DNA from: a virus
Length of the DNA: 64,000 bases
Strand: one strand, 5' to 3'
IMG/VR virus record: IMGVR_UViG_3300020248_000002
A model generated the notes under the pieces. That model searched no databases, was not told the DNA's origin, and saw only the letters and a program-made list of their open reading frames with translations. Position 1 is the first letter of the stretch. Each line of letters starts with the position of its first letter. Shown piece by piece: positions 1-64,000 of the stretch. Position numbers and translations under genes: made by a program.

Positions 1-2
1 TA

Positions 3-989
3 GATTGTTGGAATGCCAATCAAGTGATGGCAGGATATAATGATTACTATGGTTCATCTCAATATAATGGTGATAATATTAGACACCCTGATGGTCACTC
101 TAAGATAATAGGTTATAGTTTTGATGGTTATCCTGTGTATGGTCCTTATGGATATACAGATGCTAATGATAACACTACACCTGTAATCAGAATGTCTTCT
201 GGATGGACAGTAAGAACTCAAGAAGCACCTGGAAGACCTGCATATGATACAACATACCCCGCAGGTGTGTTTATGGAAGATTATGAATATACTGGTGGAA
301 CAGGAAAGTTAGATACACATAACGGTAGACATTGTGTAACACCTGAGTATCCTAGTGGTACTTTTGCATACTTTCTTACTGAAGATAATTCTGGAAATCC
401 AGTATTTCCTTTTATGATGGGTTTGACCTCGAAAGAGGCAATGGTAGTACCTGCCAATGATGGTTTTACACAAACTGCACCACCTACTGATGATGGTGGC
501 GATACTCCCGATCAACCCCCTACTCTTGTAATTACAAATCAACCAACAAACGCTACTATTCAAAGTGGAAACCTTCAACAGTTTAGTTTGTTAGCAGAAA
601 TACAACCACAAAATGATACTATTGCATATCAGTGGCAAGTATCAACAGATGGTGGATTTGCTTGGTCTAACTTAACTGGTAATACATCAGCAACACTGAA
701 TATAAATGCTCAACCATTTATGACAGGTTATCGTTATAGATGTGTGTTGACTGGTCCAGTTGGTGCATCTACTCAAGCACAAAACTCACCTTTAATAAGT
801 AATTTGGCGATCCTTACTGTAACAGGTAGTGGAACGACTATAGATTATGCCAGTATCCTCAAATTTGACAGTGGTATTGGAAAATACGATATGACTCCAG
901 TTAATTTTGACAGGGATAATAACAACCCTGACTTTACTATACAGAACTTTACACTGGATAATTCGACAACTTCCTTCGATATGACATAA
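3..989 (+). CDS. YHYH-family virion protein with C-terminal Ig-like domain (5' partial)
   Basis: Frame is open from the window edge (D-C-W-N-A-N-Q-V-M...). Contains HSKIIGYSFDGYPVYGPYG, LDTHNGRHCVTPEYP and an Ig-like YQWQVS...YRYRCV segment. Confidence 0.7.
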   Translation, partial: DCWNANQVMAGYNDYYGSSQYNGDNIRHPDGHSKIIGYSFDGYPVYGPYGYTDANDNTTPVIRMSSGWTVRTQEAPGRPAYDTTYPAGVFMEDYEYTGGTGKLDTHNGRHCVTPEYPSGTFAYFLTEDNSGNPVFPFMMGLTSKEAMVVPANDGFTQTAPPTDDGGDTPDQPPTLVITNQPTNATIQSGNLQQFSLLAEIQPQNDTIAYQWQVSTDGGFAWSNLTGNTSATLNINAQPFMTGYRYRCVLTGPVGASTQAQNSPLISNLAILTVTGSGTTIDYASILKFDSGIGKYDMTPVNFDRDNNNPDFTIQNFTLDNSTTSFDMT

Positions 990-992
990 ATA
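985..992 (+). promoter_or_regulatory. T4-type late promoter (CATAAATA)
   Basis: Matches the gp55-dependent TATAAATA consensus and lies just upstream of ATG 1017. Confidence 0.6.
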
Positions 993-1016
993 AAACTGTA
1001 GAAAAAACCCCCTACT

Positions 1017-2696
1017 ATGGCTAAGCAGAATGTAAACGTCGGTGTATCGGCAAATGATGGTACAGGAGATACCCTCAGAGACGGTGCTATAAAACTTAAT
1101 AACGTAATTAACGAGTTATACACCCAACTTGGTGATAATACTAATTTGCAAGTTAGTATTGGATCACCATCAACAAACCAAGTCCTTAAATGGAATGGAA
1201 CAGTATTTACAGAAGGAGATCTGGCATCATCTAATTTGACTGATGTTGACTTGACTGGTATTGGAAATGGTCAAGTACTAAAATGGAATACAGCAAACTC
1301 AAGATTCCAACCTGGTGATGACTTACAAGGTAGTGGTGGCGGTGGGGGCAATGCCATTACTAACTTGACTAACAATGGTTCTAATAACGTTGTTATCTCA
1401 ACTCATTTTCTACCAAACACCGACAACACATATGACTTAGGTAGTAACTCACTTAAGTTTAGGGATTTATATCTATCCAGTTCTACTATTTGGATGGATG
1501 ATACAGGTATTTCTATAGGATCTGATCAAGAAATTACTCGTAGAAAGAGAAAAGCACATACTGTTCATAGTATAGACACAGGTGCTACTCGTACTATTAC
1601 ATCTAAATTAGCGTCAGAAAACTCTACAGAAGAAGAGGGTCTTCGTTTACGTTTTAGTGCGATGAAAGTAGGAACACCTCTAGAAATTGAGGATGTTAAT
1701 GGTAATAAAATTGAAGCAACATTTGCATCATTTACTGCTGAAGCAGGTGCTACTCGTGGTACTGTTACAGTTAGTGCTACAGGAACTGCTAACCAAACAC
1801 AAGAACTAGCAGTATCTGGTGATATTAAGATTTCATCTAAAAATAAATTAATTACTGAACAAGAAGATGGTGCTGTAGATCTTGGTGCACAGAAACTAAA
1901 GTTTGGTTTTGGTGATATATCATTTGATACTGATGGTATTCTTGAACTTCCTGCTTCAAGTTCTATCCGTTTTGGTACTCCAGGTTCTGCTAAAGAACTT
2001 AAGTTTGATGGAAACAACAATTTAGATTTACCTACAGGAACAGATATTCGTTTTGGTGGTGATGCTGCAAAGTCTATTAAGTTTGACGGATCTGGTAATT
2101 TAGAAGTTCCAGAAAACTCTGAGATAAGATTTGGTAGTGGTGGTACTAAAAAAATATCGCTTGATGGAAGTAACAACTTAGTTCTTCCTACAGGAACTGA
2201 AATTCATATTGGTACCAAAAAAATTAAAATTGATACTAATGGTGAACTACAGGTTGCTAATGATGGTACAACTTTTGAAGACGTTGATAGAGGATTCAAA
2301 CGTCAAGGTTCTAGTGCACCTGCGGGAGCAAGTGTTATTAAAGGATATAATAATGCAACTGTATATAAACCATCTCCAACAATTTTATATACATTCAGTG
2401 CAGTTGGACAATCAAACTATACAGTTAATGGACCTGGATTACCATCAGGAGGATCTACAGATCCTAATATAATTCTTTATCGTGGATTTACATACGATTT
2501 TAATAATACTACTGGATCATCTCATCCACTAAGAATACAGTCTACAACTGGTCTTTCAGGAACTCCATATACTACAGGTATTACTGGATCACAAACTGCT
2601 ATGCAGTCATTTACAGTTCCTTTTGATGCACCTACAACTTTATATTATCAATGCACAATCCACTCATCTATGAATGGAACTATAGAAATTAGGTAA
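1017..2696 (+). CDS. baseplate/short-fibre protein with gp9/gp10-type N-terminus, internal beta repeats and C-terminal cupredoxin-like domain
   Basis: N-terminal NVGVSANDGTGDTLRDGAIKLN motif; about 26-aa repeats LxLPxxxxIRFG...KxxFDG; C-terminal HPLRIQ...YYQCTIHSSM. Confidence 0.7.
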   Translation: MAKQNVNVGVSANDGTGDTLRDGAIKLNNVINELYTQLGDNTNLQVSIGSPSTNQVLKWNGTVFTEGDLASSNLTDVDLTGIGNGQVLKWNTANSRFQPGDDLQGSGGGGGNAITNLTNNGSNNVVISTHFLPNTDNTYDLGSNSLKFRDLYLSSSTIWMDDTGISIGSDQEITRRKRKAHTVHSIDTGATRTITSKLASENSTEEEGLRLRFSAMKVGTPLEIEDVNGNKIEATFASFTAEAGATRGTVTVSATGTANQTQELAVSGDIKISSKNKLITEQEDGAVDLGAQKLKFGFGDISFDTDGILELPASSSIRFGTPGSAKELKFDGNNNLDLPTGTDIRFGGDAAKSIKFDGSGNLEVPENSEIRFGSGGTKKISLDGSNNLVLPTGTEIHIGTKKIKIDTNGELQVANDGTTFEDVDRGFKRQGSSAPAGASVIKGYNNATVYKPSPTILYTFSAVGQSNYTVNGPGLPSGGSTDPNIILYRGFTYDFNNTTGSSHPLRIQSTTGLSGTPYTTGITGSQTAMQSFTVPFDAPTTLYYQCTIHSSMNGTIEIR

Positions 2697-4567
2697 TGGC
2701 AAGAACAGTCCCAGGATCAGGAGCAGTTATTGAACCCATTTTTAACAGTACGTTCGGTATCAAGGACGTATTTGTTAATGATGGGGGTACTGGCTATGTG
2801 GCAGGGGACCCTCCAGAATTAAAAGTTGGAAATTGTGGAACACCATTAAGAGAAGCAATACTTGAACCTGTAATTACTAATGGTCAAATTGCTGCTGTAA
2901 AAGTATTAGATCCAGGTGAAGGATATGATCCTCTCAGGATTAAGATAAACACAAGTGGTAATGGTTATGGTGCTGCTGCAAAAGCAATATTATGGGACGA
3001 AGATCAATATGCTCCTGATGGAACATTGACTGCACCCGCAGGTTCTCTTCAGTATATTCAGATGTTATCGAATGGGGATCAATATTTTAGTGATGCCACA
3101 ACTGCTGAAATAGATGGTGGAGGTGGTGCAGGTGCTGAACTTAGACCTGTTACTGGATTAATAACTGGTTTAGCATTAGAAGATACTGGATCTAACTATG
3201 AAAATGGTGATATTAATATCATCGTATCTGGTGGAGGTGGACAAGGTGCTACTGGAGTTGCAGAGGTAGATGAATTTGGTATTGTTAAAGCAGTAAATAT
3301 ATCAAACGCAGGTGAATATTTCCAAACTCCTCCTGTTATATTACTCAACGGTGGTGGTGGAGGTGGTGCCAGAGCAATCGCTACTGTAGATTTAGGTTCA
3401 ATAGTTTCTATTGATGTTTTAGATCCTGGTGGTGGTTTCTCATCAGAACCCCAAGTTCTTTTTACTAGAAATACAGATTTAGTCAAAAGGTCTAGAAATA
3501 GACAAGCATTTAACTCATTTTTATATAATTTAACTGGTCTTATTAATAATGTAAGTATTTCCGATCAAACAATATTTGTTGAGACTACTGCACCTTATCC
3601 TGGATCAGGAAAAATATTAATTGGAAGTGAAGTTATCAGATATACTGGTAAAACTCCTACATCTTTTGTTGGTTGTGACCGTGCTGTTAATTTTAGATAT
3701 GATCAAAAAGTAACCCTAGATACTCTTGCTGATGATAATGATGGTGTTAGTCAATATAAATTTAATGTAGGTGATCGTGTTATAAGAACATCTGAAAGTT
3801 CAAGTAACAAAATTGCTCGTGTATATGACTGGAGACCTGAGATTAATGCACTATATTTGGTATTTGAAGTTGATAAACTAGCATTCATTGATGGTGGATC
3901 ATCAAATACTATATCTCAAGTTATTGATTTTGTTGGTGGTGTTGCATCATCTAGTGCTACTGGTGTTGAACCACACGTATTAGTTGATTCTATAGGTGAT
4001 ACTATCGTTCAGTTAACAGATCCTATTGGTCTAATACAAGATAAAAAATTTGAAGATGATGACGAATTACAAGGAGCAGGAGATGGTATTCCTGATCTAG
4101 TAAATACTAATACAGAATTTGCAAATGCTATCAGTCTTGATGGTGGTATTGCATCATCTCTATATGGTATTGAGGAAACATTAGGTGGACAAAACACTTC
4201 ATTGTTCCAAGTTGGAGACCAAATGACAGATTCGTCTCTTCCTAATAGATCTCCTACTGTCTCAGTTGCAGGTGCTTTAGGTGATGGTGATTTGCATTTA
4301 GCAACTATTGAGTTTATCTTCCGTGTTATGAATAACACTAATGACTTTGTTCAAGGTGAAACCGTAACAGGAAGTTTAAGTGGAGTAACAGCAACAGTCC
4401 AATCTTGGGATGCGACTACAAAAAAACTTGTCTGTATAAATCCAGTTGCAAACTCAGGAAATTATCTTTGGAATAAGAATGAAAATATCACTGGAGGTAC
4501 GTCAGGTGCTATAGGTGTTATCCAATTTATAAATTATCCATCCTACATCAGAAACGAACCTGACTAA
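2696..4567 (+). CDS. baseplate structural protein (Gly-rich repeats), upstream of gp8
   Basis: Repeated I/VxxxGxGY...GGGGxGA motifs typical of cyanophage baseplate proteins; genomic position. Confidence 0.6.
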   Translation: MARTVPGSGAVIEPIFNSTFGIKDVFVNDGGTGYVAGDPPELKVGNCGTPLREAILEPVITNGQIAAVKVLDPGEGYDPLRIKINTSGNGYGAAAKAILWDEDQYAPDGTLTAPAGSLQYIQMLSNGDQYFSDATTAEIDGGGGAGAELRPVTGLITGLALEDTGSNYENGDINIIVSGGGGQGATGVAEVDEFGIVKAVNISNAGEYFQTPPVILLNGGGGGGARAIATVDLGSIVSIDVLDPGGGFSSEPQVLFTRNTDLVKRSRNRQAFNSFLYNLTGLINNVSISDQTIFVETTAPYPGSGKILIGSEVIRYTGKTPTSFVGCDRAVNFRYDQKVTLDTLADDNDGVSQYKFNVGDRVIRTSESSSNKIARVYDWRPEINALYLVFEVDKLAFIDGGSSNTISQVIDFVGGVASSSATGVEPHVLVDSIGDTIVQLTDPIGLIQDKKFEDDDELQGAGDGIPDLVNTNTEFANAISLDGGIASSLYGIEETLGGQNTSLFQVGDQMTDSSLPNRSPTVSVAGALGDGDLHLATIEFIFRVMNNTNDFVQGETVTGSLSGVTATVQSWDATTKKLVCINPVANSGNYLWNKNENITGGTSGAIGVIQFINYPSYIRNEPD

Positions 4568-4572
4568 ACTAC

Positions 4573-4580
4573 TATAAATA
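4573..4580 (+). promoter_or_regulatory. late promoter TATAAATA
   Basis: Exact T4 late consensus, upstream of gp8. Confidence 0.8.
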
Positions 4581-4602
4581 AAAGGAAGGTACATAGTATC
4601 CA

Positions 4603-6138: not shown

Positions 6139-6141
6139 GAA

Positions 6142-23742: not shown

Positions 23743-25640
23743 TGAACAATCTTCAATCATTTTCTAACTTTACTGAACACTGTGGTTGCGATCATAGTGA
23801 AGACAAAAAGAAAAAATCTAAAGTTACTAAAGAAGAGATCATAAAAGAATATGGTGATCCTACAGTTAGTAAGAGATTGAGAGTTGCTCGTGCGATTGAT
23901 TCAACGTTTAGAGGTAAAGCACCAAAGTACAATAGTAAGCGTGCTAAAATTTCTAATGCTTTGAAGATGTCATCAATAAAAGCAGAGACAAAAAAAAGAA
24001 AGGCAAAAGAAAATCCATATTCAGCAGGTAAAAAATTAAAAGCAGCTCTTGGAATAAACAGTGAAGGTTATCTTCCAGAAGAGGGATATGATATTGCAAG
24101 AGATATGGGAATGGTAAAACCATCTAAAGATAAGAAAGATGCAACTACTGCTAACCATACAAGAGAAACTGAGACTGATGCTCAAAGAAAATTACGTATG
24201 CTAAAGCAGCAGAAGAATACTGCTAGAGCAGTTGAGAATGTTAAACAAAGACTTAGAGATAAGTATGGTAAGAATGCCATAATGGATGTAGGTAAGAAAA
24301 ATGAAGAAGTAGAACATCTTGATGAATTAAGTAAGACAACTACTGCGAACTATCTCTACCACGCAAAGGTAGATAAAAATTATGTTCACGGTGGCAAGAT
24401 GGGTAAGTATGCAAAAGCGAGAGACAAAGGAATACAAAGAGCAGAGAAAAAACTAGGAAAAAAAGTTAGTGATAGAGTTAACTATGTTGCAGATACTGAT
24501 ACTCGCTCGATGAGACAAGATTCAAGTACATCAGCATACCCTAGAAAAATTAAGGTAAAAGAAGAAGTACAGTTAGAGAAAGTTAATCTAAGAGATAAGT
24601 CTACTCAGTATGCTAGAAGCACTAAAGAGGTAGATACTGCAATGACAGATCACGTCAATAGAACAAAAGGTAGACACTATGGTAAAGATGGTAAGGTCAC
24701 AGAAGTTGGTCGTTATCGTAGACCAAGTAAGAGAGAAGCAAGAAATGAATTGATTGATTTGTATAAAGAAAGTTATGGTAGAGGTAGACTTACTAGCACT
24801 AATGATATGCAGAGTAAGTTATACGCTAAGAATAATAGTATGGGTAAACCAAGAACTGATGATGAGATCAGGAAAGAAAAAGGTGGACAAGCATTTCTTG
24901 ATAGAATCAAAGCAGCAAAATCAAAAATGAAAAGTGAAGGAACTTCTTATGGTCTCTACAAGGGAACTGGTAAACCATCAGGTCCTATGGCAGCGTTTGC
25001 TAAGAAAACTAAGAAGAAAAAAGAAGTAAAAGAAGAAATGGGTAATATAGCACATACTAAAACTAAAAAAGGTGGAAAGACAATTATAAATGTAAATAAA
25101 AATGATGAGGCAGATGCACAGAAAGCAATGAAGAATGATCCAAAATACATTCTTGGTAAGACTAGAGTGCAGTCATATAAAGAAGAATTTTATCAAAAAA
25201 GATATACTAGCAGTGGTTATAAACCTGTTGGTAAAAATAAGAGAATGGATCAGTCAAACAAAAGATCTGGTGATAGTAAAGCACAGTATAGAGACTTACA
25301 TAAAGATCTTGCTAAGTATGGTCACGTTAAAACAGGTAAAGCAAGTAACCTTAAAAGTGGTTTGAAGAGTTTCAAGGAATCTGCGTGGCAACGTAAAGAA
25401 GGAAAGAACCCTAGTGGTGGGTTAAATGAAAAGGGAAGAAAGTCTTATGAAAGAGAAAATCCTGGTTCAGATCTCAAAGCACCTGTAACAGGTAGTCCAA
25501 AACCAGGTAGTAAGGCAGATAAAAGGCAAAACAATTTTTGCAAAAGAATGGGTGGAATGAGAGGACCTATGAAAGATGAGAAAGGTAGACCAACTCGTAA
25601 AGCATTAGCACTTAAAAAATGGAACTGTCGTAGTTCCTAG
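23742..25640 (+). CDS. Lys/Arg-rich modular protein (possible internal head protein)
   Basis: Very basic modules separated by Glu-containing linkers; C-terminal AWQRKEGKNPSGGLNEKGRKSY...FCKRMGGM...ALKKWNC domain. Confidence 0.7.
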   Translation: MNNLQSFSNFTEHCGCDHSEDKKKKSKVTKEEIIKEYGDPTVSKRLRVARAIDSTFRGKAPKYNSKRAKISNALKMSSIKAETKKRKAKENPYSAGKKLKAALGINSEGYLPEEGYDIARDMGMVKPSKDKKDATTANHTRETETDAQRKLRMLKQQKNTARAVENVKQRLRDKYGKNAIMDVGKKNEEVEHLDELSKTTTANYLYHAKVDKNYVHGGKMGKYAKARDKGIQRAEKKLGKKVSDRVNYVADTDTRSMRQDSSTSAYPRKIKVKEEVQLEKVNLRDKSTQYARSTKEVDTAMTDHVNRTKGRHYGKDGKVTEVGRYRRPSKREARNELIDLYKESYGRGRLTSTNDMQSKLYAKNNSMGKPRTDDEIRKEKGGQAFLDRIKAAKSKMKSEGTSYGLYKGTGKPSGPMAAFAKKTKKKKEVKEEMGNIAHTKTKKGGKTIINVNKNDEADAQKAMKNDPKYILGKTRVQSYKEEFYQKRYTSSGYKPVGKNKRMDQSNKRSGDSKAQYRDLHKDLAKYGHVKTGKASNLKSGLKSFKESAWQRKEGKNPSGGLNEKGRKSYERENPGSDLKAPVTGSPKPGSKADKRQNNFCKRMGGMRGPMKDEKGRPTRKALALKKWNCRSS

Positions 25641-26280: not shown

Positions 26281-26453
26281 TGGTTGTCTGGGGTGTTGTT
26301 ATTATGATTGCAATACTTGTTGTAATAGTTACTTGGTATATCGTCTATATACTAAGGACTGCATATATGGAGATGAACGATGGGAGCAATGGTTCCACCA
26401 AGCAGGAAGAGTTGCTACAACTTCCGAGTGACAGAGATAAACAGGGTAGTTGA
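26280..26453 (+). CDS. 57-aa single-pass membrane protein (not in ORF track)
   Basis: TAATG overlap; MVVWGVVIMIAILVVIVTWYIVYILR hydrophobic helix. Confidence 0.55.
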   Translation: MVVWGVVIMIAILVVIVTWYIVYILRTAYMEMNDGSNGSTKQEELLQLPSDRDKQGS

Positions 26454-26844
26454 TGGTGACACTATTGACGTTACTATCGATCTAGGTTTTGATCTATACA
26501 AAAAAGAAAGGGTGAGAGTAGCAGGAGTCGATACTCCTGAGAAACGCACCCGTGACTTGGAAGAGAAAGCATTAGGTATAGATGCTACTAATTGGATAAA
26601 AGAAAAATTGGAGGGTGCTATTGATGGAGAGTCTGAACTTACTATACGAACTGAACTCAAGGGAGGGATGGGTAAGTATGGTCGTTTGCTTGGTTGGTTA
26701 TATGTTGGTGATGAAGATGTATCTCTCAACGAGCAAATGATAACCGAAGGATATGCGTGGTCTTATGATGGTGGTACAAAGAAAAAAGACTTTGAGGAAC
26801 TACGCGAAATTCGTCGTTCATATGGTACACTTGTAGCAGGTTAA
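26380..26844 (+). CDS. staphylococcal-nuclease-like (thermonuclease) endonuclease
   Basis: RVVDGDTID, RVAGVDTPE, GKYGRLL and LNEQMITEGYA motifs. Confidence 0.88.
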   Translation: MGAMVPPSRKSCYNFRVTEINRVVDGDTIDVTIDLGFDLYKKERVRVAGVDTPEKRTRDLEEKALGIDATNWIKEKLEGAIDGESELTIRTELKGGMGKYGRLLGWLYVGDEDVSLNEQMITEGYAWSYDGGTKKKDFEELREIRRSYGTLVAG

Positions 26845-32300: not shown

Positions 32301-32972
32301 ATGGCAGAAGCACAACCAGGACAGGTACAAGGTGCAAATATAAAAGCACCTATCTTTACCTTCCGAGATAACGTAAAGGACTTTGCACGTCCTAATCTGT
32401 TCCAAGTTGAAGTGTTTGCACCTCCTGTTTTACAGGATGCAATTACACCCCAACCTGGTGGAGTAAGTGGATCAACCGCAGAAGTTTTAGAAACATCAGC
32501 GGGTGGTTCACAATTAAACGCAGCATCAGCAAATGCGTTTGGTACATTCCTTGTAAAGGCAGCAAACATTCCTGCATCAGTTGTAGGAGTTGTTAACGTT
32601 CCTTACAGAGGAAGACAATTAAAAATTGCAGGTGATAGAACCTTTGAACCTTGGACAGTAACTGTACTTAATGATCAGTCATTTAAGTTCAGAGCATTCT
32701 TCGAGGCGTGGTCATCTAACATCCAAGCACTACAACAAAACTTCCAAAACTCAAATACTATTGCAGACTATCAGTCTACAGCAAAAGTTCGTCAGATGGA
32801 TCGTAAAGGAAACATCATCAGAACTTATAGATTTGAAGGTATCTGGCCAAGCAACATTAGTGCTATCGAACTTGACTGGGGAACAAATGACACTCCAGAA
32901 GAGTACACTGTAGAGTTCCAAGTACAATACTGGACATACGATACAGACGTAGATAGCGGAAACCAGTCATAA
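32301..32972 (+). CDS. gp19: tail tube protein gp19
   Basis: ARPNLFQV; VPYRGRQLKIAGDRTFEPWTVTV; GIWPSNISAIEL. Confidence 0.95.
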   Translation: MAEAQPGQVQGANIKAPIFTFRDNVKDFARPNLFQVEVFAPPVLQDAITPQPGGVSGSTAEVLETSAGGSQLNAASANAFGTFLVKAANIPASVVGVVNVPYRGRQLKIAGDRTFEPWTVTVLNDQSFKFRAFFEAWSSNIQALQQNFQNSNTIADYQSTAKVRQMDRKGNIIRTYRFEGIWPSNISAIELDWGTNDTPEEYTVEFQVQYWTYDTDVDSGNQS

Positions 32973-53855: not shown

Positions 53856-54391
53856 TGATCTTAACTCCTTTCGGTCCTAAAATTTATCACGGTAGAATAG
53901 ATGAAGATGTAAGACTAGACTTACTAAGATATGCTTTTGATGCAGAACCATCACAGGATGCGTCTGGTATATTAGCAGGTCAACTAGAAGAACAATTTTA
54001 TATCTATCCAAGTAAACGTGATTTAGATGAATTGCGTAAACACATTGGCACATATACTAATCAAAATTATATTGATATAGAACCTATATGGGTAAACTTT
54101 CAACGTGCAGATGATTGGCAACCTGTACATAATCACGCAGGTGAATTTAGTTTTGTAGTTTATGTAGATATTCCACCTGGAATGTATGATGAACCAGAGA
54201 TAGCAGGTTCGATCGTGTTTAACTATGGAGAACAGTTACCACACGCAAGGTGTCAGTATGGTCCAATCAAACCACAGGTAGGTGACATTTATATTTTTCC
54301 TGCTTGGTTAAAACATTATGTGTATCCCTACAAATCTACTGGACAAAGAGTGTCAGTTAGTGGTAATATAATAACAAGATTAAATTCATAA
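53855..54391 (+). CDS. 2OG-Fe(II) oxygenase (HxH type)
   Basis: WVNFQ; HNH..FSFVVY; FPAWLKHYVYP; RVSVSGN. Confidence 0.8.
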   Translation: MILTPFGPKIYHGRIDEDVRLDLLRYAFDAEPSQDASGILAGQLEEQFYIYPSKRDLDELRKHIGTYTNQNYIDIEPIWVNFQRADDWQPVHNHAGEFSFVVYVDIPPGMYDEPEIAGSIVFNYGEQLPHARCQYGPIKPQVGDIYIFPAWLKHYVYPYKSTGQRVSVSGNIITRLNS

Positions 54392-55218
54392 TGAAATCAT
54401 TGAAGACTCCTCTTAGGTATCCTGGTGGAAAGTCAAGAGTAGCACCAATGCTCGTGGACAAGATGCCACGTATGACAGAATATCGAGAACCTTTTCTTGG
54501 TGGTGGTTCTACTGCTATAGAATTTACAAAAAGATATAGAGATATACCTGTATGGGTAAATGACTTATACGTTCCTTTGTATAATTTCTGGACTATCTTA
54601 CAAGAAGATTATGATACTTTATCTGATGCCCTAATGGGATTGAAGATGAATCACGATACTCCTGAGAAAGCAAGAGAACTATATCACGCAGCAAAGACTA
54701 GAGTTAATGACTCTGATATGTTTTTGTCTGCTGTTTACTTTTGGGTAATGAATAAATGTTCCTACTCAGGTCTAACAGAGAACTCATCATTTTCACCACA
54801 GGCATCAGTACAGAATTTCACTAAGAAAGGTATTAAGAACTTACCTTACTATGGAGAACTGATTCAAGATTGGAAGATAACTAACTTAGATTATAATTCT
54901 TGTTTTGGTGGTGATGCTTTTCTCTTCTTAGATCCTCCATATGATATAAAAGATTTTTTATATGGTGGTAAAGGTGGAACAATGCACAAAGGTTTTGACC
55001 ACAGACAGTTTGCATATAATTGTGCAGAGACAACTAACAACTGGATGATCACATATAACATCAATGAAAACATTGAAGAACTATTCAAAAGTTATAATAT
55101 AGAAAAATATTCTATTACGTATGGAATGCAACACAGAGAAGACAATACTAGAAAGAAGGAACTTTTAATTACTAACTATAGTATAAAATCACCATTGGAG
55201 GAGTTATTCGTTGATTGA
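54391..55218 (+). CDS. dam: DNA adenine methyltransferase (Dam/D12 class)
   Basis: LRYPGGKS; EPFLGGGS; LDPPY; ELLITNY. Confidence 0.9.
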   Translation: MKSLKTPLRYPGGKSRVAPMLVDKMPRMTEYREPFLGGGSTAIEFTKRYRDIPVWVNDLYVPLYNFWTILQEDYDTLSDALMGLKMNHDTPEKARELYHAAKTRVNDSDMFLSAVYFWVMNKCSYSGLTENSSFSPQASVQNFTKKGIKNLPYYGELIQDWKITNLDYNSCFGGDAFLFLDPPYDIKDFLYGGKGGTMHKGFDHRQFAYNCAETTNNWMITYNINENIEELFKSYNIEKYSITYGMQHREDNTRKKELLITNYSIKSPLEELFVD

Positions 55219-57682: not shown

Positions 57683-57691
57683 GATTAAATT

Positions 57692-58218: not shown

Positions 58219-58487
58219 ATCCTTGGTATGCCAAGATGGAAAGATGGGCAAAGAAACAAAGGTTTCCTATCAATCATCTTTTACTAGGTCTTGTAGCATA
58301 TCTTAAAGAAGAATGGATAGAGCAGAAGATAGAGAACACAATGGATGATGTAGATAGGCAGGTAGAACAGATTAAAGAAGACTGGGATGCTGAGGAACGT
58401 GAACAGTTTGGAGTGATAAATAGTTCACCTTCAGAAGTGAAGGGTTTAAACAATTTTGAAATTAATTACAATGCAAAAGATCATTAA
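58164..58487 (+). CDS. hypothetical protein
   Basis: FEKQFGKGVDPWYAK; start refined to MEKKK. Confidence 0.6.
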   Translation: MEKKKTLLKFEKQFGKGVDPWYAKMERWAKKQRFPINHLLLGLVAYLKEEWIEQKIENTMDDVDRQVEQIKEDWDAEEREQFGVINSSPSEVKGLNNFEINYNAKDH

Positions 58488-58698
58488 TGGAATCGCTATT
58501 GCAAGTGGTGTTATCTCTCTCACCGTTGTTGGTACTGTTGGGTATGTATTCATACGCAAGGATGCGATTATCGAAAACGTCAAAGGTAAAATAATGGAAG
58601 CAGTTATGCCTTCTATGGGCGGTGCTATTCAAAAATCATTACCTGATATAACTGGACCTGTCTTACCTACTGGACCTAACCTACCTAAAGGAATGTAA
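58471..58698 (+). CDS. single-TM hypothetical protein
   Basis: MQKIINGIAIASGVISLTVVG; late-promoter-like ATAAATA at 58416. Confidence 0.65.
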   Translation: MQKIINGIAIASGVISLTVVGTVGYVFIRKDAIIENVKGKIMEAVMPSMGGAIQKSLPDITGPVLPTGPNLPKGM

Positions 58699-59465
58699 TG
58701 GAAGAAATCCCAAATATTATTATTTCGGATCTCTACATACCAAACACAAATGCTGTAAATGTACCACCGTGGGTTGGAAAACCCGCGTGGTCGTTTGGTC
58801 CTAGCGTTCCTGTAACAGTTGACATTGGAACTCCTGTTGTCAATATTCCAGGTTGCGTTGAAGCACACGAACTCAATAATCAAAAAAATAAAAATCTTGC
58901 TGAGGATGATCCTGATAAAACTATCACATATTGTGATGGAGGAGTACCATCTTTTGAGACTATAGATTATAGAGAAGATGAATTAATATTTGAACAGGAG
59001 ACTGTGGTTCCAGATATAGCACCACCTCCAGAAATAGAAACACCAGAAGTAACACCACCAAACATACCTTCTACAGATAAAGAAATAGAATGCCCTGCAC
59101 CTAATCAACCTAGAGTTGGTGATCTAACTCAGAATGGAGAAGAGAGAGTTATAGGTCACGAGGTACGAGAAGGTCAATGTGTAGTGTTATATGAGGACAC
59201 TACAGTAGTCGAAAAATTTTTACCATCTACAAATCAAGTATCTGTGACAGCAGCGATAGCAGTGGTTGCTACAGCATCTGCTGCTGCGACACCATTATTA
59301 TTGAGAGTTATAAAACCTGCAATAAAAAAACTCACTACTACCATACAGAAGAAGTTCGGTAAAGAACCACCTAAGTTAAGTCGTAATGAGATACAGTGTA
59401 ATAAATATCGTGAGAAAAAAGGACTACCTCCCTTCAAACTTCCTAAAAAGAAAAAGAAAAATTAA
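58698..59465 (+). CDS. Pro-rich protein with C-terminal TM and basic tail
   Basis: PVTVDIGTPVVNIPGCVEAH; TM segment VTAAIAVVATASAAATPLLL. Confidence 0.7.
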   Translation: MEEIPNIIISDLYIPNTNAVNVPPWVGKPAWSFGPSVPVTVDIGTPVVNIPGCVEAHELNNQKNKNLAEDDPDKTITYCDGGVPSFETIDYREDELIFEQETVVPDIAPPPEIETPEVTPPNIPSTDKEIECPAPNQPRVGDLTQNGEERVIGHEVREGQCVVLYEDTTVVEKFLPSTNQVSVTAAIAVVATASAAATPLLLRVIKPAIKKLTTTIQKKFGKEPPKLSRNEIQCNKYREKKGLPPFKLPKKKKKN

Positions 59466-60340
59466 TTATTACCAATAGATACTTCTTTTAATAATGAAGC
59501 ATCTGTACTAGGTATTGTATGAGCGTGGTTTGGAAGAACTCCAGGTGGGTTTACTAGAACCACATCGGCACATACAGCATAGTATGGTGAGTCTTTATGG
59601 AACATTATTCCTGCCTTCATCAGTTCACCACAATTTTTTAATCTCGCGATCTCAAAGTCTAATCTTTTATTAGCAGTGAGTTGTTGTGAATATGCTATTT
59701 GAGTTGCTACTGCTTCCTTACACTGGTCTTGTAGTGTCTTGTCTAATGGTTTAGACCACGTTGCACTAAAACCTATTGATATAGAATGATTATCTTTCTG
59801 ACCTGTTCTTACTGGAACTTCATATAACACCACCCCTGGATTATCTGGTGCACCATCTCCTGTGGGATTTCCATTTGCATCTGTAGTACCAGTCAAGTCA
59901 CGCATATCATACACTTGATCAAACCATATATCTTCGTAGGGACGTTGTAGAGATGTACTCCCTGTAACATACGGTGTGAAGTTTAACGTTGGACCTTGAC
60001 ATTGTATGCCATTTCCATAAGTGTTAGTTATATACGGACCCTGCAAAACCTGTATAGCTTGATTTGTGACACTTCCAGAACTGTTTGCTATTGGCGATGC
60101 TGTTGCTGACACACCACCAACTGTCTCTGCACGCATAGGTAGAGCGTTAGCAGTGAGAACTGTTGCTATTATTGTTGAAATATACTTTGCGTATCTGTGA
60201 CCGAAGTTACGGTTGTTTCTCTTTGTATTACTGTATGATTTATTAGACCTGGGGCACGATACGTCTCCGTGAACTGGAACGCTGCTCCTGGAGTTGTTAT
60301 CGTGTAGTTTGGTTTGTTTGCGTGGTCTAAGTCTTGCCAT
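59462..60340 (-). CDS. exported/membrane protein with amphipathic beta-strands (start uncertain)
   Basis: Signal-like IIATVLTANALPMRA; CQGPTLNFTPY; SISIGFSATWSKPL; RLKNCGEL. Confidence 0.65.
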   Translation of the reverse strand: MARLRPRKQTKLHDNNSRSSVPVHGDVSCPRSNKSYSNTKRNNRNFGHRYAKYISTIIATVLTANALPMRAETVGGVSATASPIANSSGSVTNQAIQVLQGPYITNTYGNGIQCQGPTLNFTPYVTGSTSLQRPYEDIWFDQVYDMRDLTGTTDANGNPTGDGAPDNPGVVLYEVPVRTGQKDNHSISIGFSATWSKPLDKTLQDQCKEAVATQIAYSQQLTANKRLDFEIARLKNCGELMKAGIMFHKDSPYYAVCADVVLVNPPGVLPNHAHTIPSTDASLLKEVSIGNN

Positions 60341-60612
60341 TGCGAAGTCACTCCATTAATAGTATTAGATGAACCATTCCCTATAGCGGGTGATATGGTT
60401 GTTCCATCTTGTGATATGTTTGTACCACTGACCGAATATTGCCACCCTGTCGCATAATCCATAGAATTTATGGTCTCCGTCACGGTGGAAGTCGTTTCCG
60501 TGTGGGAAGTCATACTACCCTGAGAAAAATTTGGCACCACAGGCACTGCTATGACTGGGTTTACGCCCATAGTCAACGTTGCAATGCCACATATGTACCA
60601 TACACGTTTCAT
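60169..60612 (-). CDS. exported Thr-rich beta protein
   Basis: Signal peptide ending VIA; VPVVPNFSQGSMTSHTETTSTVTETI. Confidence 0.7.
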   Translation of the reverse strand: MKRVWYICGIATLTMGVNPVIAVPVVPNFSQGSMTSHTETTSTVTETINSMDYATGWQYSVSGTNISQDGTTISPAIGNGSSNTINGVTSQWQDLDHANKPNYTITTPGAAFQFTETYRAPGLINHTVIQRETTVTSVTDTQSIFQQ

Positions 60613-60625
60613 ATTATATAGTTAC

Positions 60626-61135
60626 TTATTGGATGGTTAATTCAGTTGTGAATTGTCCTACAGCACCTGTACCTGCTCCACCTGCTGTTAGTGAAATCGT
60701 ACCAGATGAATCAACAGTTCCTGCTAAACTATCTTTTGTACCTGCTGCTGTGGATGTCTGATTACCGAACGCTGATACTGCACCTGTGGTCAACGTTGTT
60801 GATATGGCATCACCTTGATTCCAAGATTGTGTAAAGCTGAAACTTTCCCCTGCTGTTGCCTGAACTGCACCGAGAGAAGGTATTGCTCCGACACCTGTAG
60901 ATGCGGTGATTGTCATAGCACCTATGGTGTTGTATGATGCACCATTAGAATCTGTACCAGTTGTTGTAACGTTATTACCTGATACACTGTAAACGTTTGG
61001 AGTACGACTTACCTGAGTCGCTGCTGCATTCACATTTAACTGGATACTAGATTGAATTTTATGCGTTAAATCTGCCCTCGCTGATAGAGGTGCACCCAAT
61101 ATTCCCATAACAATAACGAAAGCGAGTTTCTTCAT
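60626..61135 (-). CDS. exported G/S/T/A-rich beta protein
   Basis: Classical signal peptide MKKLAFVIVMGILGAPLSARA; late-promoter-like CTAAATA on the minus strand at 61166-61172. Confidence 0.72.
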   Translation of the reverse strand: MKKLAFVIVMGILGAPLSARADLTHKIQSSIQLNVNAAATQVSRTPNVYSVSGNNVTTTGTDSNGASYNTIGAMTITASTGVGAIPSLGAVQATAGESFSFTQSWNQGDAISTTLTTGAVSAFGNQTSTAAGTKDSLAGTVDSSGTISLTAGGAGTGAVGQFTTELTIQ

Positions 61136-61283
61136 TGTCTTTAAATTTAGAGACTATACTGGCTCTATTTAGACAAATGAATGGTTTCGTGACACCCGTA
61201 TATTTACTTATGGTTATCCTCCTAGTCATAGCAATACATATAGTGTTAAATAGTATTGTCGCCTTACAGGGACACTATTCACA

Positions 61284-61299
61284 CTCGCTTAAAAAGGAG
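61284..61299 (+). promoter_or_regulatory. ROSE-like SD-sequestering hairpin (candidate RNA thermometer)
   Basis: CTC(G)CTT-AAA-AAGGAG: a UCGCU motif pairs with the SD leaving a bulged G, 7 nt before the hsp20 ATG. Confidence 0.55.
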
Positions 61300-61306
61300 A
61301 ACTATT

Positions 61307-61750
61307 ATGGGTACGCTATCTAGGTACACAGCAAATGACCTTGACTTTCTAATGGATGCTATAGAGAAAACAAGCATCGGATTAGGACCAACTCTTAAGA
61401 GATTGGATGTCACAAACGGATCTAACAGATCCTATCCACCATATAACATCATCAAAAACTCAGAAGAAAACTGGGAGATTGAGATGGCACTTGCAGGATG
61501 GGATAAAGATGACATAGAAGTATCTACAGAACAAAACGTTCTAACTATTGCATCTAAAAAAAGTAAAGAAGATGAAGAACCACGCACACACGTGCATCGT
61601 GGACTCGCATCTAGAGAATTTACTCAGACTTTTAACCTTGCTGATGATGTAGAGATTGGAGAAGTTCAATACAAGAACGGTCTTCTATCAATAAGTTTGA
61701 ACAAGATTGTACCAGAACATCAGAAGAGAAAAGTCTTTGATATATCCTAA
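61307..61750 (+). CDS. hsp20: small heat shock protein Hsp20
   Basis: YPPYNI; IEMALAG; HRGLASREF..TF.L; NGLLSI.L..IVPE; AGGAG SD before ATG 61307. Confidence 0.93.
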   Translation: MGTLSRYTANDLDFLMDAIEKTSIGLGPTLKRLDVTNGSNRSYPPYNIIKNSEENWEIEMALAGWDKDDIEVSTEQNVLTIASKKSKEDEEPRTHVHRGLASREFTQTFNLADDVEIGEVQYKNGLLSISLNKIVPEHQKRKVFDIS

Positions 61751-61761
61751 ATTAAGGACAC

Positions 61762-61790
61762 TTGACAATGTTAGTGTATTAAGATATACT
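61762..61790 (+). promoter_or_regulatory. sigma70 promoter TTGACA-N17-TATACT with overlapping GTA-N8-TAC box
   Basis: Consensus -35 and near-consensus -10; GTATTAAGATATAC at 61776-61789. Confidence 0.7.
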
Positions 61791-61800
61791 ATATAATTAT

Positions 61801-61890
61801 ACAAAGGGATCGAAAGATCGTGCCCCTGCGTAGATTCAAAAGACACCTATGTCGAGGTAGTCTAACATCCGCGGGGGTTTTCCTTGCGAG
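61801..61890 (+). ncRNA. structured 5' leader RNA (candidate cis-regulatory element)
   Basis: GC-rich island with three hairpins, including GATC-GAAA-GATC, and an alternative long-range pairing. Confidence 0.55.
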
Positions 61891-61905
61891 AAATTAAAAA
61901 CAAAA

Positions 61906-62253
61906 ATGATTAAATCACTATTAGCAGTAGCATCTGTCTCTGCACTCTCAGCACCTGTACTAGCAGGTCCTTATGTCAACGTAGAAGTAAACTCATCTCT
62001 AACAGGTAGTAACTACACAGGCACAACAACAGAATTACAAGTCGGATATGAAGGAGACAACTGGTATGTTTCTGGTGGTCCTATCACAACTGCACCTGAC
62101 GGTGGTGAGTCTTCAACAGACTTCATTGGATACCTTGGTGGTTCTGTTGACGTAACCGAAGCAGTTGGAGTGTATGGAGAGTTTTCACTACAGACAGCAG
62201 ATGCTGCTGATAACGCATACGGTGTTAAGTTAGGTACAAAGTACACTTTCTAA
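61906..62253 (+). CDS. small porin-like outer-membrane beta protein
   Basis: Signal peptide ending VLA; alternating beta-strands; C-terminal GTKYTF (terminal Phe, BAM-type signal). Confidence 0.7.
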   Translation: MIKSLLAVASVSALSAPVLAGPYVNVEVNSSLTGSNYTGTTTELQVGYEGDNWYVSGGPITTAPDGGESSTDFIGYLGGSVDVTEAVGVYGEFSLQTADAADNAYGVKLGTKYTF

Positions 62254-62320: not shown

Positions 62321-62563
62321 ATGAACTACTATGTGAATTGCACACCTCGGCATATTAAAGAGAAGGAGAATGTCAATATGGACATCCCTACATCTGATGT
62401 CGAGGATTTTCTTTACTACGTTCGTCTCTTAGCGGACGAAAGAAATATTTCATCACGTCGTGCCTTTGGCGAACTTGTCAAAGGTGTTTACCAACAACTT
62501 ATGGAGAAAGAGTATGACCGTCAAGATCGTAAGAGTCGCCAACGGGGAAGATATAATCGCTGA
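62321..62563 (+). CDS. hypothetical protein
   Basis: Intact ORF following the terminator. Confidence 0.55.
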   Translation: MNYYVNCTPRHIKEKENVNMDIPTSDVEDFLYYVRLLADERNISSRRAFGELVKGVYQQLMEKEYDRQDRKSRQRGRYNR

Positions 62564-62882
62564 TGTTCAAGAAGCGTATCCTAATAAAGAAGTATATTCT
62601 CCTATTGGATACTTTCTTACTAACCCTTATCAGGTTATAGTAGAAGCAACAGCGGAAATGCTTTTTGAATCAGGAACTTCTGATGAACCACAAAAAATCA
62701 ATGACTTAGATCTACAACTATTTCCTTGGATACCTATGTCAGCAGACAAACGTTGTCTAGTACAGTTAAGTCAGGTTCAAACAATTTACAATCCACACCC
62801 AGAGTTATTATCTAAATGGGAAAAACTAACGGAGGCAGACAATGGCACCAATCAAACTGGTGATACTAAGGGACAGTCTTAG
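62514..62882 (+). CDS. conserved hypothetical protein (Sm-like) upstream of gp43
   Basis: GGAG SD; MTVKIVRVANGEDIIADV; LFPWIP. Confidence 0.7.
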   Translation: MTVKIVRVANGEDIIADVQEAYPNKEVYSPIGYFLTNPYQVIVEATAEMLFESGTSDEPQKINDLDLQLFPWIPMSADKRCLVQLSQVQTIYNPHPELLSKWEKLTEADNGTNQTGDTKGQS

Positions 62883-63081
62883 TTACCTTATGGGAGAGGT
62901 TACTGAATTAGATGAAGAACCATCATACTTAATTACAGGTTGTATGAAAATTGATGGTGATAAAGTATCTGCTTTTCCAGAACATACAGATCAAAGAGAT
63001 GTCTTCTTGACATCTGATGTAATTTTGACTATAGTAGATCCATCCAAAGACGCAATAACTAATTACAAGAAAGCATTGTGA
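62842..63081 (+). CDS. hypothetical protein
   Basis: GGAGG SD; LTSDVILTIVDP. Confidence 0.65.
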   Translation: MAPIKLVILRDSLSYLMGEVTELDEEPSYLITGCMKIDGDKVSAFPEHTDQRDVFLTSDVILTIVDPSKDAITNYKKAL

Positions 63082-64000
63082 GCAGATTATACTCTAACGT
63101 AACTTTACTAGGTGACTCTATCCTTTGTAGAGGATATGAAAATGGTGATCCAGTATCGTTTAAAGAGATTATCAAACCTACATTATTTGTTCCTTCACCT
63201 AAAGGTAAATGGAAGTCACTAACAGGTGAGAAAATGACACCTGTAGTGCAGGATGGTGCTCGTCGTGCTAGAGAGTTTATTGAAAAATATAAAGACGTTA
63301 ATAACTTTGAGGTTCACGGTTACGAACGTTTTGTATATCAATGGATCTCTGAAAAATATCCAGGTCAACTAAGATTCAATATGAGTGATATGAAAATCAT
63401 TACTATTGATATTGAGGTTGCTTGTGAAAATGGATTCCCTGATGTAGAAGCATCACAGGAGGAAATGCTTTGTATAACAATCAAAGATCTTGCTACTGGT
63501 AAGTTTATTACTTGGGGAACTCGTGAAGCAAAGGTAGACACAGAGTATCGAGTGTTCTGGACAGAACAGGAAATGCTTACCGACTTTCATAAGTGGTGGT
63601 GTTCTAATACACCTGATATTATTACTGGTTGGAACTGTAACTTGTATGATATACCTTACATTTGTCGTCGTCTAGAACGTGTACTAGGAGAGAAATGGCA
63701 GAAGTCATTATCACCTTGGAATAAAGTAAATATGCGAGAGGTCTACATTCAAGGACGTAGAAATCTTGCTTACGATATACTAGGTGTCAGCATCTTAGAT
63801 TATCTTGATCTCTATAGAAAGTTTACATATACTAATCAAGAATCATATCGTCTAGAGCATATTGCTACAGTAGAACTTGGTGAAGGTAAACTAGATCATA
63901 GTGAGTTTGAAAACTTTAAAGATTTCTATACAGAACATTGGCAGAAGTTTGTAGAGTACAACATTAAAGACGTTGATCTAGTTGACAGACTAGAGAAGAA
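63078..64000 (+). CDS. gp43: B-family DNA polymerase gp43 (3' partial; not in ORF track)
   Basis: GTG start MSRLYSNV; ExoI TIDIEV..ENGFPD; ExoII TGWN..LYDIPYI; LDYLDLYRKFT..NQESYRL; ExoIII YNIKDV. Confidence 0.95.
   Translation, partial: MSRLYSNVTLLGDSILCRGYENGDPVSFKEIIKPTLFVPSPKGKWKSLTGEKMTPVVQDGARRAREFIEKYKDVNNFEVHGYERFVYQWISEKYPGQLRFNMSDMKIITIDIEVACENGFPDVEASQEEMLCITIKDLATGKFITWGTREAKVDTEYRVFWTEQEMLTDFHKWWCSNTPDIITGWNCNLYDIPYICRRLERVLGEKWQKSLSPWNKVNMREVYIQGRRNLAYDILGVSILDYLDLYRKFTYTNQESYRLEHIATVELGEGKLDHSEFENFKDFYTEHWQKFVEYNIKDVDLVDRLEK

What the first reader, a model, noticed from the sequence alone, without database searches (positions are those of the whole stretch)
1..64000. CATG appears purged from the genome at the codon level
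Seen: I checked the base before every ATG in roughly 1-6400 and 56500-62000 and found no CATG, and noticed none elsewhere. His codons before G are consistently CAC. NCA codons switch to otherwise rare NCG exactly before TG: GCG-TGG at 25383, 26755, 31774 and 32706; ACG-TGG at 39861; TCG-TGG at 28913; CCG-TGG at 52766. Inference: strong selection against a host CATG-targeting defence (NlaIII-like restriction or another site-specific system), which fingerprints the host.
Basis: partly seen in the sequence, partly recalled or inferred. Interest (0 to 1): 0.7.

Follow-up and report, generated by a model that had tools for sequence, protein, structure and literature searches.

The report
Cyanophage genome stripped of CATG
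This marine cyanophage has removed every CATG and at least 14 other short DNA words by silent codon changes. The CATG loss is shared by a whole uncultured phage clade and most likely shields these phages from a restriction-type nuclease they carry themselves without the usual protective methylase, rather than from a host enzyme.

Summary
CATG occurs 0 times in the window and in the 112-kb contig; a codon-preserving shuffle expects 168±9. All the codon claims hold. CATG is not alone: CCGG, GCGC, RGCY, CCAGC, GGTNACC, CCAN5TGG and six or more 6-bp palindromes are also gone.

Relatives differ, so the refutation test is not met. CATG loss defines one deep, uncultured clade: 46 of 46 gp46 sequences on one branch, 100% support. 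Three near-complete genomes have 0 CATG in 172–185 kb. Four cultured relatives have normal CATG.

"Fingerprints the host" is not supported. Following earlier notes of this scan on other cyanophage DNA, I found that the clade carries a PvuII-fold endonuclease. Contigs where it stands alone have zero CATG (10 of 10). Those that keep an adjacent adenine-methylase usually keep CATG (27 of 30). CATG is the only word that behaves this way.

Host NlaIII-like systems exist but are rare (3 of 401 picocyanobacterial genomes). Own nuclease ~0.55; host restriction ~0.33. The other purged words remain unattributed.

The parts
1..64000 (.). Whole window free of CATG, CCGG, GCGC, CCAGC/GCTGG, GATATC, CTGCAG, ATGCAT, ACTAGT, GTATAC, TTCGAA, CAATTG, GGTNACC and CCAN5TGG. 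Near-free of RGCY (AGCT 6, AGCC 4, GGCT 5, GGCC 3). GATC is kept (291).
25383..25388 (+). Example of a context-dependent codon switch: GCG-TGG (Ala-Trp), where GCA would create CATG. The same occurs at 26755, 31774, 32706 (GCG-TGG), 39861 (ACG-TGG), 28913 (TCG-TGG) and 52766 (CCG-TGG).
   Evidence: all seven coordinates exact. NCA never precedes TG (0 of 135).
32845..32848 (+). Residual GGCC inside an in-frame Trp-Pro (TGG-CCA), the only GGCC context that cannot be removed silently. The two others in the window are at 45825-45828 and 53716-53719.
   Evidence: In the contig, 7 of 8 GGCC are TGG-CCN. The Trp-Pro dipeptide itself is scarce (7 against 12.6 expected; Pro-Trp 20).
54391..55218 (+). 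D12-class (Dam-like) N6-adenine DNA methyltransferase. It is conserved in CATG-free and CATG-normal relatives alike, and it fits GATC being kept or enriched. It is not the clade-specific determinant.
   Evidence: PF02086, E 6e-29; present in G787, P-TIM40, P-RSM1, P-RSM6, S-SZBM1; GATC 460 against shuffle 413.
26380..26844 (+). SNase-fold (non-specific) nuclease upstream of the terminase, annotated 'endonuclease' in relatives. It is the only nuclease-type gene of unassigned role in the window and is not a candidate for site-specific cutting.
   Evidence: PF00565, E 1e-11; for synteny.

Best explanation
Shown: the genome is under continuous purifying selection against at least 15 short, mostly palindromic words. 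The selection acts through synonymous codon choice. Sites survive only where the protein forces them.

Inferred for CATG: the ban is enforced by a small PvuII-fold Type II restriction endonuclease that this phage clade carries in its early-gene region without a partner methylase. The enzyme would cut CATG in DNA that holds the word, meaning the host chromosome and/or competing phages. The phage is safe because it offers no target, so any new CATG is selected against.

Related phages that keep the adjacent compact N6-adenine methyltransferase can keep CATG. Which came first, purging or loss of the methylase, is unknown.

The other purged words have no identified agent:
- CCGG is absent family-wide.
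- GCGC, RGCY, CCAGC, GGTNACC, CCAN5TGG and the 6-bp palindromes vary by lineage.
- They most likely reflect restriction systems met across the host population.
For: 1. The purge is real and works at codon level.
2. It is specific to palindromes.
3. Seven contigs at 92-100% gp46 identity, from seven different metagenomes, share the whole purge set. This excludes an artefact of one assembly.
4. CATG loss defines a clade.
   - All 45 contigs with gp46 identity of 59% or more have 0 CATG; all at 55% or less are normal.
   - In the gp46 tree, 46 of 46 CATG-free rows lie on one branch with 100% support. The portal protein agrees.
5. Near-complete clade genomes have no CATG: G787 0 of 662 expected, G788 0 of 629, G807 0 in 185 kb.
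   - Four cultured relatives have 585-731 CATG.
6. The three clade genomes encode a 188-192-aa protein that is absent from those four isolates.
   - The model of the G787 copy has pLDDT 86, and its 12 best PDB matches are all PvuII (E 7e-8, TM 0.60/0.73).
   - The D...E-x-K core is invariant in 15 homologues.
7. Among 40 viral contigs that encode the protein:
   - 10 of 10 with a solitary nuclease have 0 CATG.
   - 26 of 29 with the adjacent ~185-aa ORF, and the one with a full N4/N6 methyltransferase, keep CATG (Fisher 3e-7, not corrected for phylogeny).
8. That adjacent ORF looks like an adenine methylase.
   - It has an invariant NPPF motif.
   - Its model best matches the catalytic domain of the adenine methylase M.TaqI.
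9. In the nuclease tree, the methylase-bearing, CATG-containing group is nested among solitary, CATG-free lineages.
10. An unbiased word scan singles out CATG.
   - It is the only word absent from all solitary-nuclease genomes (0 of 2,468 expected) yet normal in nuclease-less isolates (2,631 of 2,663) and partly restored in partnered contigs (500 of 1,150).
   - CCGG fails this test, and CAGCTG occurs twice in the solitary contig L431.
11. Lead only, not checked by me: note e1-5643680 reports a 166-aa orphan nuclease with the same motifs in this very genome, about 9 kb beyond my contig. G787 carries the gene at the matching place.
Against: - The nuclease gene is not in the window or in the 112-kb contig I could read. 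Its presence in this phage rests on an unchecked first-reader note.
- Cutting at CATG is inferred from correlation only. PvuII itself cuts CAGCTG.
- Pfam matches are below the family's cut-off (13-20 bits against 25).
- The solitary-nuclease contigs represent only 3-5 lineages within one clade, so shared ancestry could produce the association.
- Three partnered contigs also have 0 CATG, and many have only 1-3 copies.
- CCGG is just as absent, family-wide, with no phage nuclease known. So an absolute ban does not by itself require a phage-borne enzyme.
- A phage methylase could equally be protecting CATG from a host enzyme.
- Four partial CATG-free contigs show no nuclease. This is uninformative, because they may lack the early region.
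Confidence: 0.55

Rival explanations
1. Host restriction. A CATG-specific R-M system (NlaIII-like or another family) circulates in the host population of this clade and selects against every CATG. The phage nuclease is unrelated, and the phage methylase, where present, simply protects CATG from the host enzyme.
For: - Restriction avoidance is the established cause of such purges (Rusinov 2018, PMC6286503, listed).
- NlaIII/ICEA-family ββα-Me nucleases occur in 3 of 401 picocyanobacterial genomes.
- Each of the three systems sits beside a DNA methyltransferase. One genome is Prochlorococcus sp. scB243_495K23.
- The family is found in 20 of 401 cyanobacteria phylum-wide.
- C5 methyltransferases occur in 44 of 351 picocyanobacterial genomes, up to six in one genome.
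- My own estimate, with assumed parameters: phage populations are so large that R-M carriage in about 0.1-1% of encounters could keep near-neutral synonymous sites at zero.
- CCGG shows that a complete, lineage-wide ban exists without any known phage nuclease.
Against: - Candidate host systems are rare (0.75%) and their specificity is unproven (24-30 bits to the ICEA family).
- The carrier genome G310 is not itself depleted in CATG (0.93).
- Picocyanobacteria carry 0-1 R-M systems per genome (PMC8262939).
- NATL2A has no detectable methylation, yet phages isolated on it carry other absolute purges.
- This rival does not explain why an intact restriction-fold nuclease is kept without a methylase exactly in the CATG-free genomes.
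- Host-driven purges elsewhere in the family are mosaic, whereas CATG follows one clean phylogenetic split.
Confidence: 0.33
2. Sequencing, base-calling or assembly artefact, for example systematic miscalls at a modified motif.
For: None found. I considered it because modified motifs can cause systematic long-read errors.
Against: - The word is avoided by a different synonymous change in each reading frame, and Met, His and Trp are preserved.
- More than 50 contigs assembled independently from many metagenomes share the trait.
- Amino-acid conservation at the affected positions equals the control.
Confidence: 0.01
3. Neutral mutational decay or a signal unrelated to nucleases: deamination at methylated sites, avoidance of spurious start codons, or copying of host oligonucleotide usage.
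For: General depletion of CpG and GC-rich words exists in the genome.
Against: - A count of exactly 0 against an expectation of hundreds cannot be maintained without selection.
- Only C is excluded before ATG (A 563, G 490, T 445, C 0).
- The loss is specific to palindromes.
- Prochlorococcus genomes use CATG, CCGG, GCGC, AGCT and GGCC at normal rates.
Confidence: 0.03

Closest known systems
Restriction-site (palindrome) avoidance in virulent dsDNA phages. Sources: Sharp 1986 and Staphylococcus phage K lacking GATC, both from my own knowledge; Rusinov et al. 2018, PMC6286503, listed.
   Same: Short palindromic Type II sites are removed by synonymous substitution. Different lineages purge different words. 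A phage methylase (Dam-like) goes with retention of its own site (GATC).
   Different: - The breadth is unusual: at least 15 words, and 31 of 64 6-bp palindromes absent.
- The hosts of related phages are among the poorest in R-M systems.
- For CATG, the likely agent is encoded by the phage clade rather than by the host.
Chlorovirus R-M systems, e.g. PBCV-1 R.CviAII/M.CviAII. The review PMC7019647 says virus-encoded, packaged restriction endonucleases presumably start host DNA degradation within minutes. That CviAII's site is CATG is my own knowledge.
   Same: A virus-borne Type II endonuclease aimed at cellular DNA. The target word is possibly the very same one. The partnered relatives here carry an adenine methylase beside the nuclease.
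   Different: - Chloroviruses protect themselves by methylation, whereas this clade has lost the methylase and has no sites at all.
- The host is a bacterium.
- The enzyme has a PvuII fold. No activity has been shown.
R.PvuII (Type IIP, CAG^CTG; Pfam PF09225; PDB 1pvi, 2pvi, 1f0o)
   Same: Same fold (Foldseek E 7e-8, TM 0.60/0.73), a D...E-x-K catalytic core, and small size (166-192 aa). One homologue, in L430, sits beside an N4/N6 methyltransferase, the family I recall M.PvuII belonging to.
   Different: - About 20% identity, and below the Pfam gathering score.
- The usual partner is a compact gamma-class adenine methylase, or none.
- The inferred target is CATG, not CAGCTG. CAGCTG occurs in the solitary-nuclease contig L431.
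T4 host-DNA degradation by EndoII/EndoIV with self-protection by hydroxymethylcytosine (own knowledge)
   Same: A T4-like phage tells its own DNA from host DNA so that nucleases can destroy the latter.
   Different: The proposed discrimination here is by absence of a sequence word, not by a modified base.

Membership tests
Restriction-site avoidance | Word count far below an expectation that preserves the proteins and codon usage | tested here: met
   CATG 0 against 168±9. AGCT 7 against 388, CCGG 0 against 52, GCGC 0 against 47.
Restriction-site avoidance | Depletion is specific to palindromic (Type II-like) words | tested here: met
   6-mers: 6 of 32 palindromes against 0 of 2,613 non-palindromes depleted tenfold or more (p 2e-12). 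4-mers: 5 of 16 against 2 of 240.
Restriction-site avoidance | A cognate endonuclease is identified in the host | tested here: inconclusive
   The host is unknown. NlaIII/ICEA-like R-M pairs occur in 3 of 401 picocyanobacterial genomes, with unproven specificity. The carrier genome is not CATG-depleted.
PvuII-family Type II restriction endonuclease (PF09225) | PvuII fold | tested here: met
   Tested on the clade homologue G787:5724-6302. pLDDT 86; top 12 PDB hits are all PvuII, E 7e-8. This phage's own copy was not tested.
PvuII-family Type II restriction endonuclease (PF09225) | Catalytic D...(D/E)-x-K motif is conserved | tested here: met
   D81, E91 and K93 are invariant in 15 homologues.
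PvuII-family Type II restriction endonuclease (PF09225) | Score above the Pfam gathering threshold | tested here: not met
   13.5-19.8 bits against a cut-off of 25, in five homologues.
PvuII-family Type II restriction endonuclease (PF09225) | The gene is present in this phage's genome | not testable with these tools
   It is absent from the 112-kb contig. The contig ends about 4 kb short of the homologous position in G787. Only note e1-5643680 reports it.
PvuII-family Type II restriction endonuclease (PF09225) | Sequence-specific cleavage, and which site | not testable with these tools
   CATG is inferred from the word scan and the solitary/partnered contrast.
Complete Type II R-M system | A cognate methyltransferase sits beside the endonuclease | tested here: not met
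   There is no methyltransferase beside the nuclease in 10 solitary contigs, which include the G787, G788 and G807 loci. It is present in 29 partnered contigs and L430.
NlaIII/ICEA family (PF05315) as a phage gene | A homologue is encoded by the CATG-free phages | tested here: not met
   A profile of four cyanobacterial members found nothing in five CATG-free phage records, two of them at least 94% complete.

The most novel reading that the evidence does not exclude
A deep clade of marine T4-like cyanophages tells self from non-self by the absence of a word. It keeps an orphan PvuII-fold restriction enzyme that cuts CATG in host or rival-phage DNA. It has discarded the methylase and holds its own roughly 180-kb genome at exactly zero CATG. 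That would be an 'inverse' restriction-modification system. The equally absolute, family-wide absence of CCGG would then point to a second, still unidentified agent of the same kind.
Probability: 0.5. Interest if true: 0.75.

Novelty: new variant of a known kind. Interest (0 to 1): 0.6.

Why it matters
Restriction-site avoidance is normally read as a footprint of host defence. Here one of the cleanest purges known (0 CATG in 172-185 kb genomes) may instead be the footprint of the phage's own weapon.

If so, there would be three consequences:
- Word bans in viral genomes could not be used naively to infer hosts.
- Marine cyanophages, which lack the modified bases of T4, would have a simple way to destroy host or competitor DNA.
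- The nuclease and its methylase partner would be a compact, testable enzyme pair.

The family-wide mosaic of purged words also contrasts with how few R-M systems picocyanobacteria carry. That makes the strength of restriction pressure in the open ocean a measurable quantity.

Tried and rejected
- **Artefact:** rejected. The replacements are synonymous and frame-specific, and independent assemblies agree.
- **Copying of host oligonucleotide usage:** rejected. Prochlorococcus genomes have normal counts.
- **Methyltransferases or site-specific nucleases in the contig:** there is no C5, N4/N6 or phage-Dam family, and no HNH or GIY-YIG. Only a conserved D12 methylase and an SNase-fold nuclease are present. 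Pfam scans of 50 ORFs found nothing else relevant.
- **Phage-borne NlaIII-like nuclease:** none found.
- **D12 methylase as the clade determinant:** rejected. It is present in all relatives.
- **Host genome CATG depletion as a hint to specificity:** uninformative.
- **Bait searches:**
  - The phage methylase found nothing in prokaryote genomes.
  - 'Relatives' cannot be drawn for a virus record.
- **Cultured member of the CATG-free clade:** none in the phage collection. The nearest, S-SZBM1, has normal CATG.
- **Placing the partnered, CATG-normal record G806 by core genes:** it is equidistant from both groups.
- **Nuclease search in 19 further records:** nothing found; uninformative for the partial contigs.
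- **Literature:** no paper in the searchable library describes word purges in cyanophages. Subscription journals are not covered.
- **Bipartite (Type I-like) motifs:** only the interrupted palindromes GGTNACC and CCAN5TGG stood out. The rest are reading-frame effects.
Full report
**What the sequence is.**
- The window is the minus strand of positions 16267-80266 of a 112,457-bp IMG/VR virus record, estimated 63% complete.
- It is a T4-like cyanomyovirus (Kyanoviridae) with 37% G+C.
- The nearest cultured relatives are P-TIM40, P-RSM1 and P-RSM6, at about 76% nucleotide identity in structural genes.

**The observation.**
- CATG occurs 0 times in the window (about 210 expected) and 0 times in the contig (346-374 expected).
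- A shuffle that keeps every protein and each gene's codon usage gives 168±9, never below 147.
  - All seven coordinates are exact.
  - His before G is CAC 148 times and CAT never; elsewhere CAT leads 256 to 117.
  - No C-ending codon precedes ATG (0 of 239 NNY codons).
  - NCA never precedes TG (0 of 135).
- At 1,639 positions where relatives carry CATG, this phage keeps the amino-acid pair about as often as elsewhere (0.33 against 0.39; TGCA control 0.32).
  - The frame-specific synonymous replacements are CAT-G to CAC-G, NNC-ATG to NNT-ATG, and NCA-TG to NCT/NCG-TG.
  - This is selection, not a base-calling artefact.

**It is far more than CATG** (contig counts; expectations).
- Four-letter words: CCGG 0 and GCGC 0. 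AGCT 8, AGCC 5, GGCT 5 and GGCC 8, which together read RGCY.
- Five-letter word: CCAGC/GCTGG 0 (Markov expectation about 104).
- Six-letter palindromes: GATATC, CTGCAG, ATGCAT, ACTAGT, GTATAC and TTCGAA all 0, and CAATTG 1.
- Interrupted palindromes: GGTNACC 0 (21 expected) and CCAN5TGG 0 (18-26 expected).
- 31 of the 64 possible 6-bp palindromes are absent.
- The loss is specific to palindromes: 6 of 32 palindromic 6-mers against 0 of 2,613 others.
- 7 of the 8 surviving GGCC are in-frame Trp-Pro (TGG-CCN), the only GGCC the genetic code cannot avoid.
  - Trp-Pro itself is scarce (7 against 12.6 expected).
- GATC is kept, and the phage encodes a Dam-like D12 methylase at 54391-55218.

**Relatives.**
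- In 80 loci found with the portal protein, purge sets form a mosaic:
  - CCGG and GGCC are gone almost everywhere.
  - GATC, AGCT, GCGC, ACGT, TTAA, TCGA or CGCG are gone in scattered lineages.
  - CATG is gone only in this phage's clade and in two separate contigs.
- P-TIM40 and P-RSM6, both isolated on NATL2A, differ in what they purge.
  - NATL2A has no detectable methylated motifs (PMC8518828).
  - Picocyanobacteria carry 0-1 R-M systems per genome (PMC8262939).
- With gp46 as the probe the picture becomes sharp:
  - Seven contigs at 92-100% identity, from seven metagenomes, share this phage's whole purge set.
  - All 45 contigs at 59% identity or more have 0 CATG; all at 55% or less are normal.
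  - In the tree, the 46 CATG-free sequences are one side of one branch with 100% support.
  - Portal identities agree.
- Whole-genome counts:
  - G787 (181,945 bp, terminal repeats) and G788 (171,756 bp) have 0 CATG.
  - The four isolates, including the boundary phage S-SZBM1, have 585-731.
  - CCGG is 0 in all seven genomes.
- No cultured phage in the collection belongs to the CATG-free clade.

**Host side.**
- C5 methyltransferases occur in 44 of 351 sampled picocyanobacterial genomes.
- NlaIII/ICEA-like nucleases occur in 3 of 401:
  - Prochlorococcus sp. scB243_495K23 has two copies, one beside a C5 methylase.
  - Two Synechococcus-type genomes have a copy beside an N4/N6 methylase, among phycobilisome-lyase genes.
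- The family is in 20 of 401 cyanobacteria phylum-wide, all with large genomes.
- So a host CATG system is possible but rare, and its specificity is unproven.
- The carrier genome is not CATG-depleted.

**The phage's own nuclease.**
- My scans of the contig found no candidate gene.
- Earlier notes of this scan, on other cyanophage DNA, proposed an orphan PvuII-fold nuclease that cuts CATG. I tested this.
- PF09225 gives weak hits in G787 and G788 and none in this contig, P-TIM40 or S-SZBM1.
  - A homologue search and a family profile likewise found none in P-RSM1 or P-RSM6.
- The gene is one of 32 ORFs shared by G787 and G788 and absent from the four CATG-normal isolates.
- Its model is confident, and the 12 best PDB matches are all PvuII.
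- The D...E-x-K core is invariant.
- Among 40 viral contigs that encode it:
  - The 10 with a solitary nuclease all have 0 CATG.
  - 26 of the 29 with an adjacent ~185-aa ORF keep CATG, from a few copies to normal.
  - The one beside a full N4/N6 methylase (L430) has 29 against 44 expected.
- The ~185-aa ORF has an invariant NPPF motif and an M.TaqI-like catalytic fold.
- In the nuclease tree, a methylase-bearing, CATG-containing group is nested among solitary, CATG-free lineages.
- A third complete genome with a solitary nuclease, G807, has no CATG in 185 kb.
  - It has 12 in its last 2.4 kb, probably a chimeric contig end.
- An unbiased scan singles out CATG:
  - It is the only word absent from all solitary-nuclease genomes (0 of 2,468 expected), normal in nuclease-less isolates (2,631 of 2,663) and partly restored in partnered contigs (500 of 1,150).
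  - CCGG fails the test because it is also absent from the nuclease-less isolates.
  - CAGCTG occurs in the solitary contig L431.

**Limits.**
- This contig is collinear with G787 from about 70 kb round to about 2 kb. It ends about 4 kb before the nuclease position.
I could not read that DNA.
- The solitary lineages number only 3-5 and belong to one clade.
- Activity and specificity are untested.
- The equally absolute CCGG ban has no known agent.

**Verdict.**
- I put the own-nuclease reading at about 0.55 and host restriction at about 0.33.
- The scan has found this before on other DNA (e1-5320701, e1-5320715, e1-5353286, e1-5353287).
- This report adds the clade-wide phylogenetic split, the solitary-versus-partnered contrast, the identification of the methylase partner, the unbiased word scan and the host survey.

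Noticed in passing
Whole contig; also P-TIM40, P-RSM1, P-RSM6, S-SZBM1, G787, G788: CCGG is completely absent from all seven Kyanoviridae genomes examined (0 against 125-390 expected each) and from most of 160 environmental loci. Yet the NATL2A host of two of them shows no DNA methylation, and Prochlorococcus genomes use CCGG normally. This is a family-wide ban with no identified agent.
   Followed up: partly
Whole window and contig: The asymmetric 5-mer CCAGC/GCTGG is absent (0 against about 104), as are the interrupted palindromes GGTNACC and CCAN5TGG. I cannot name an enzyme for CCAGC. The same word is depleted in P-RSM1, L017 and L019 together with RGCY.
   Followed up: partly
window 32845, 45825, 53716 and the contig's other Trp-Pro sites: After Trp, Pro is CCA in 6 of 7 cases and never CCT, although CCT is the commoner Pro codon. 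GGCCT/AGGCC is absent, which hints at an extra constraint beyond GGCC itself.
   Followed up: no
L211 and L219 (Prochlorococcus-type genomes): The gap next to rimM holds different restriction genes in different genomes: a C5 methylase plus a BglI-like nuclease in one, and a solitary NlaIII-like nuclease in another. This may be a defence hot spot.
   Followed up: no
L221, L222 (genomes G124, G168; 58-59% G+C): An NlaIII-like nuclease plus N4/N6 methylase pair is inserted among phycobilisome-lyase (HEAT-repeat) genes. G124 (2.2 Mb) also has six C5-methyltransferase hits, one of them with a Vsr endonuclease and a GHKL-ATPase/nuclease protein. It is an unusually R-M-rich picocyanobacterium.
   Followed up: partly
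G811 (record of L429), positions 1-9000: 16 of this record's 23 CATG sites lie in its first 9 kb, and the remaining 46 kb is nearly CATG-free. This suggests a recombinant patch from a CATG-normal phage, tolerated in a methylase-bearing genome.
   Followed up: no
G807:185063-187347: All 12 CATG sites and 5 of the 13 AGCT sites of this 187-kb genome fall in the last 2.4 kb. This is probably a chimeric assembly end.
   Followed up: partly
window 25663-26280, 45377-45955, 52688-54391, 55211-55729; L085 10388-10933, 13118-13699; L087 8715-9254: At least nine separate 2OG-Fe(II) oxygenase paralogues are scattered through the contig. Their function is unknown.
   Followed up: no
L035, L036, L038, L050; L030, L032, L067, L071; L012, L025, L039: Other Kyanoviridae lineages have purged TTAA, ACGT or GATC respectively. 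GATC loss appears in contigs where GATC is otherwise enriched across the family. The family as a whole is a mosaic of word bans that I found described in no paper.
   Followed up: partly
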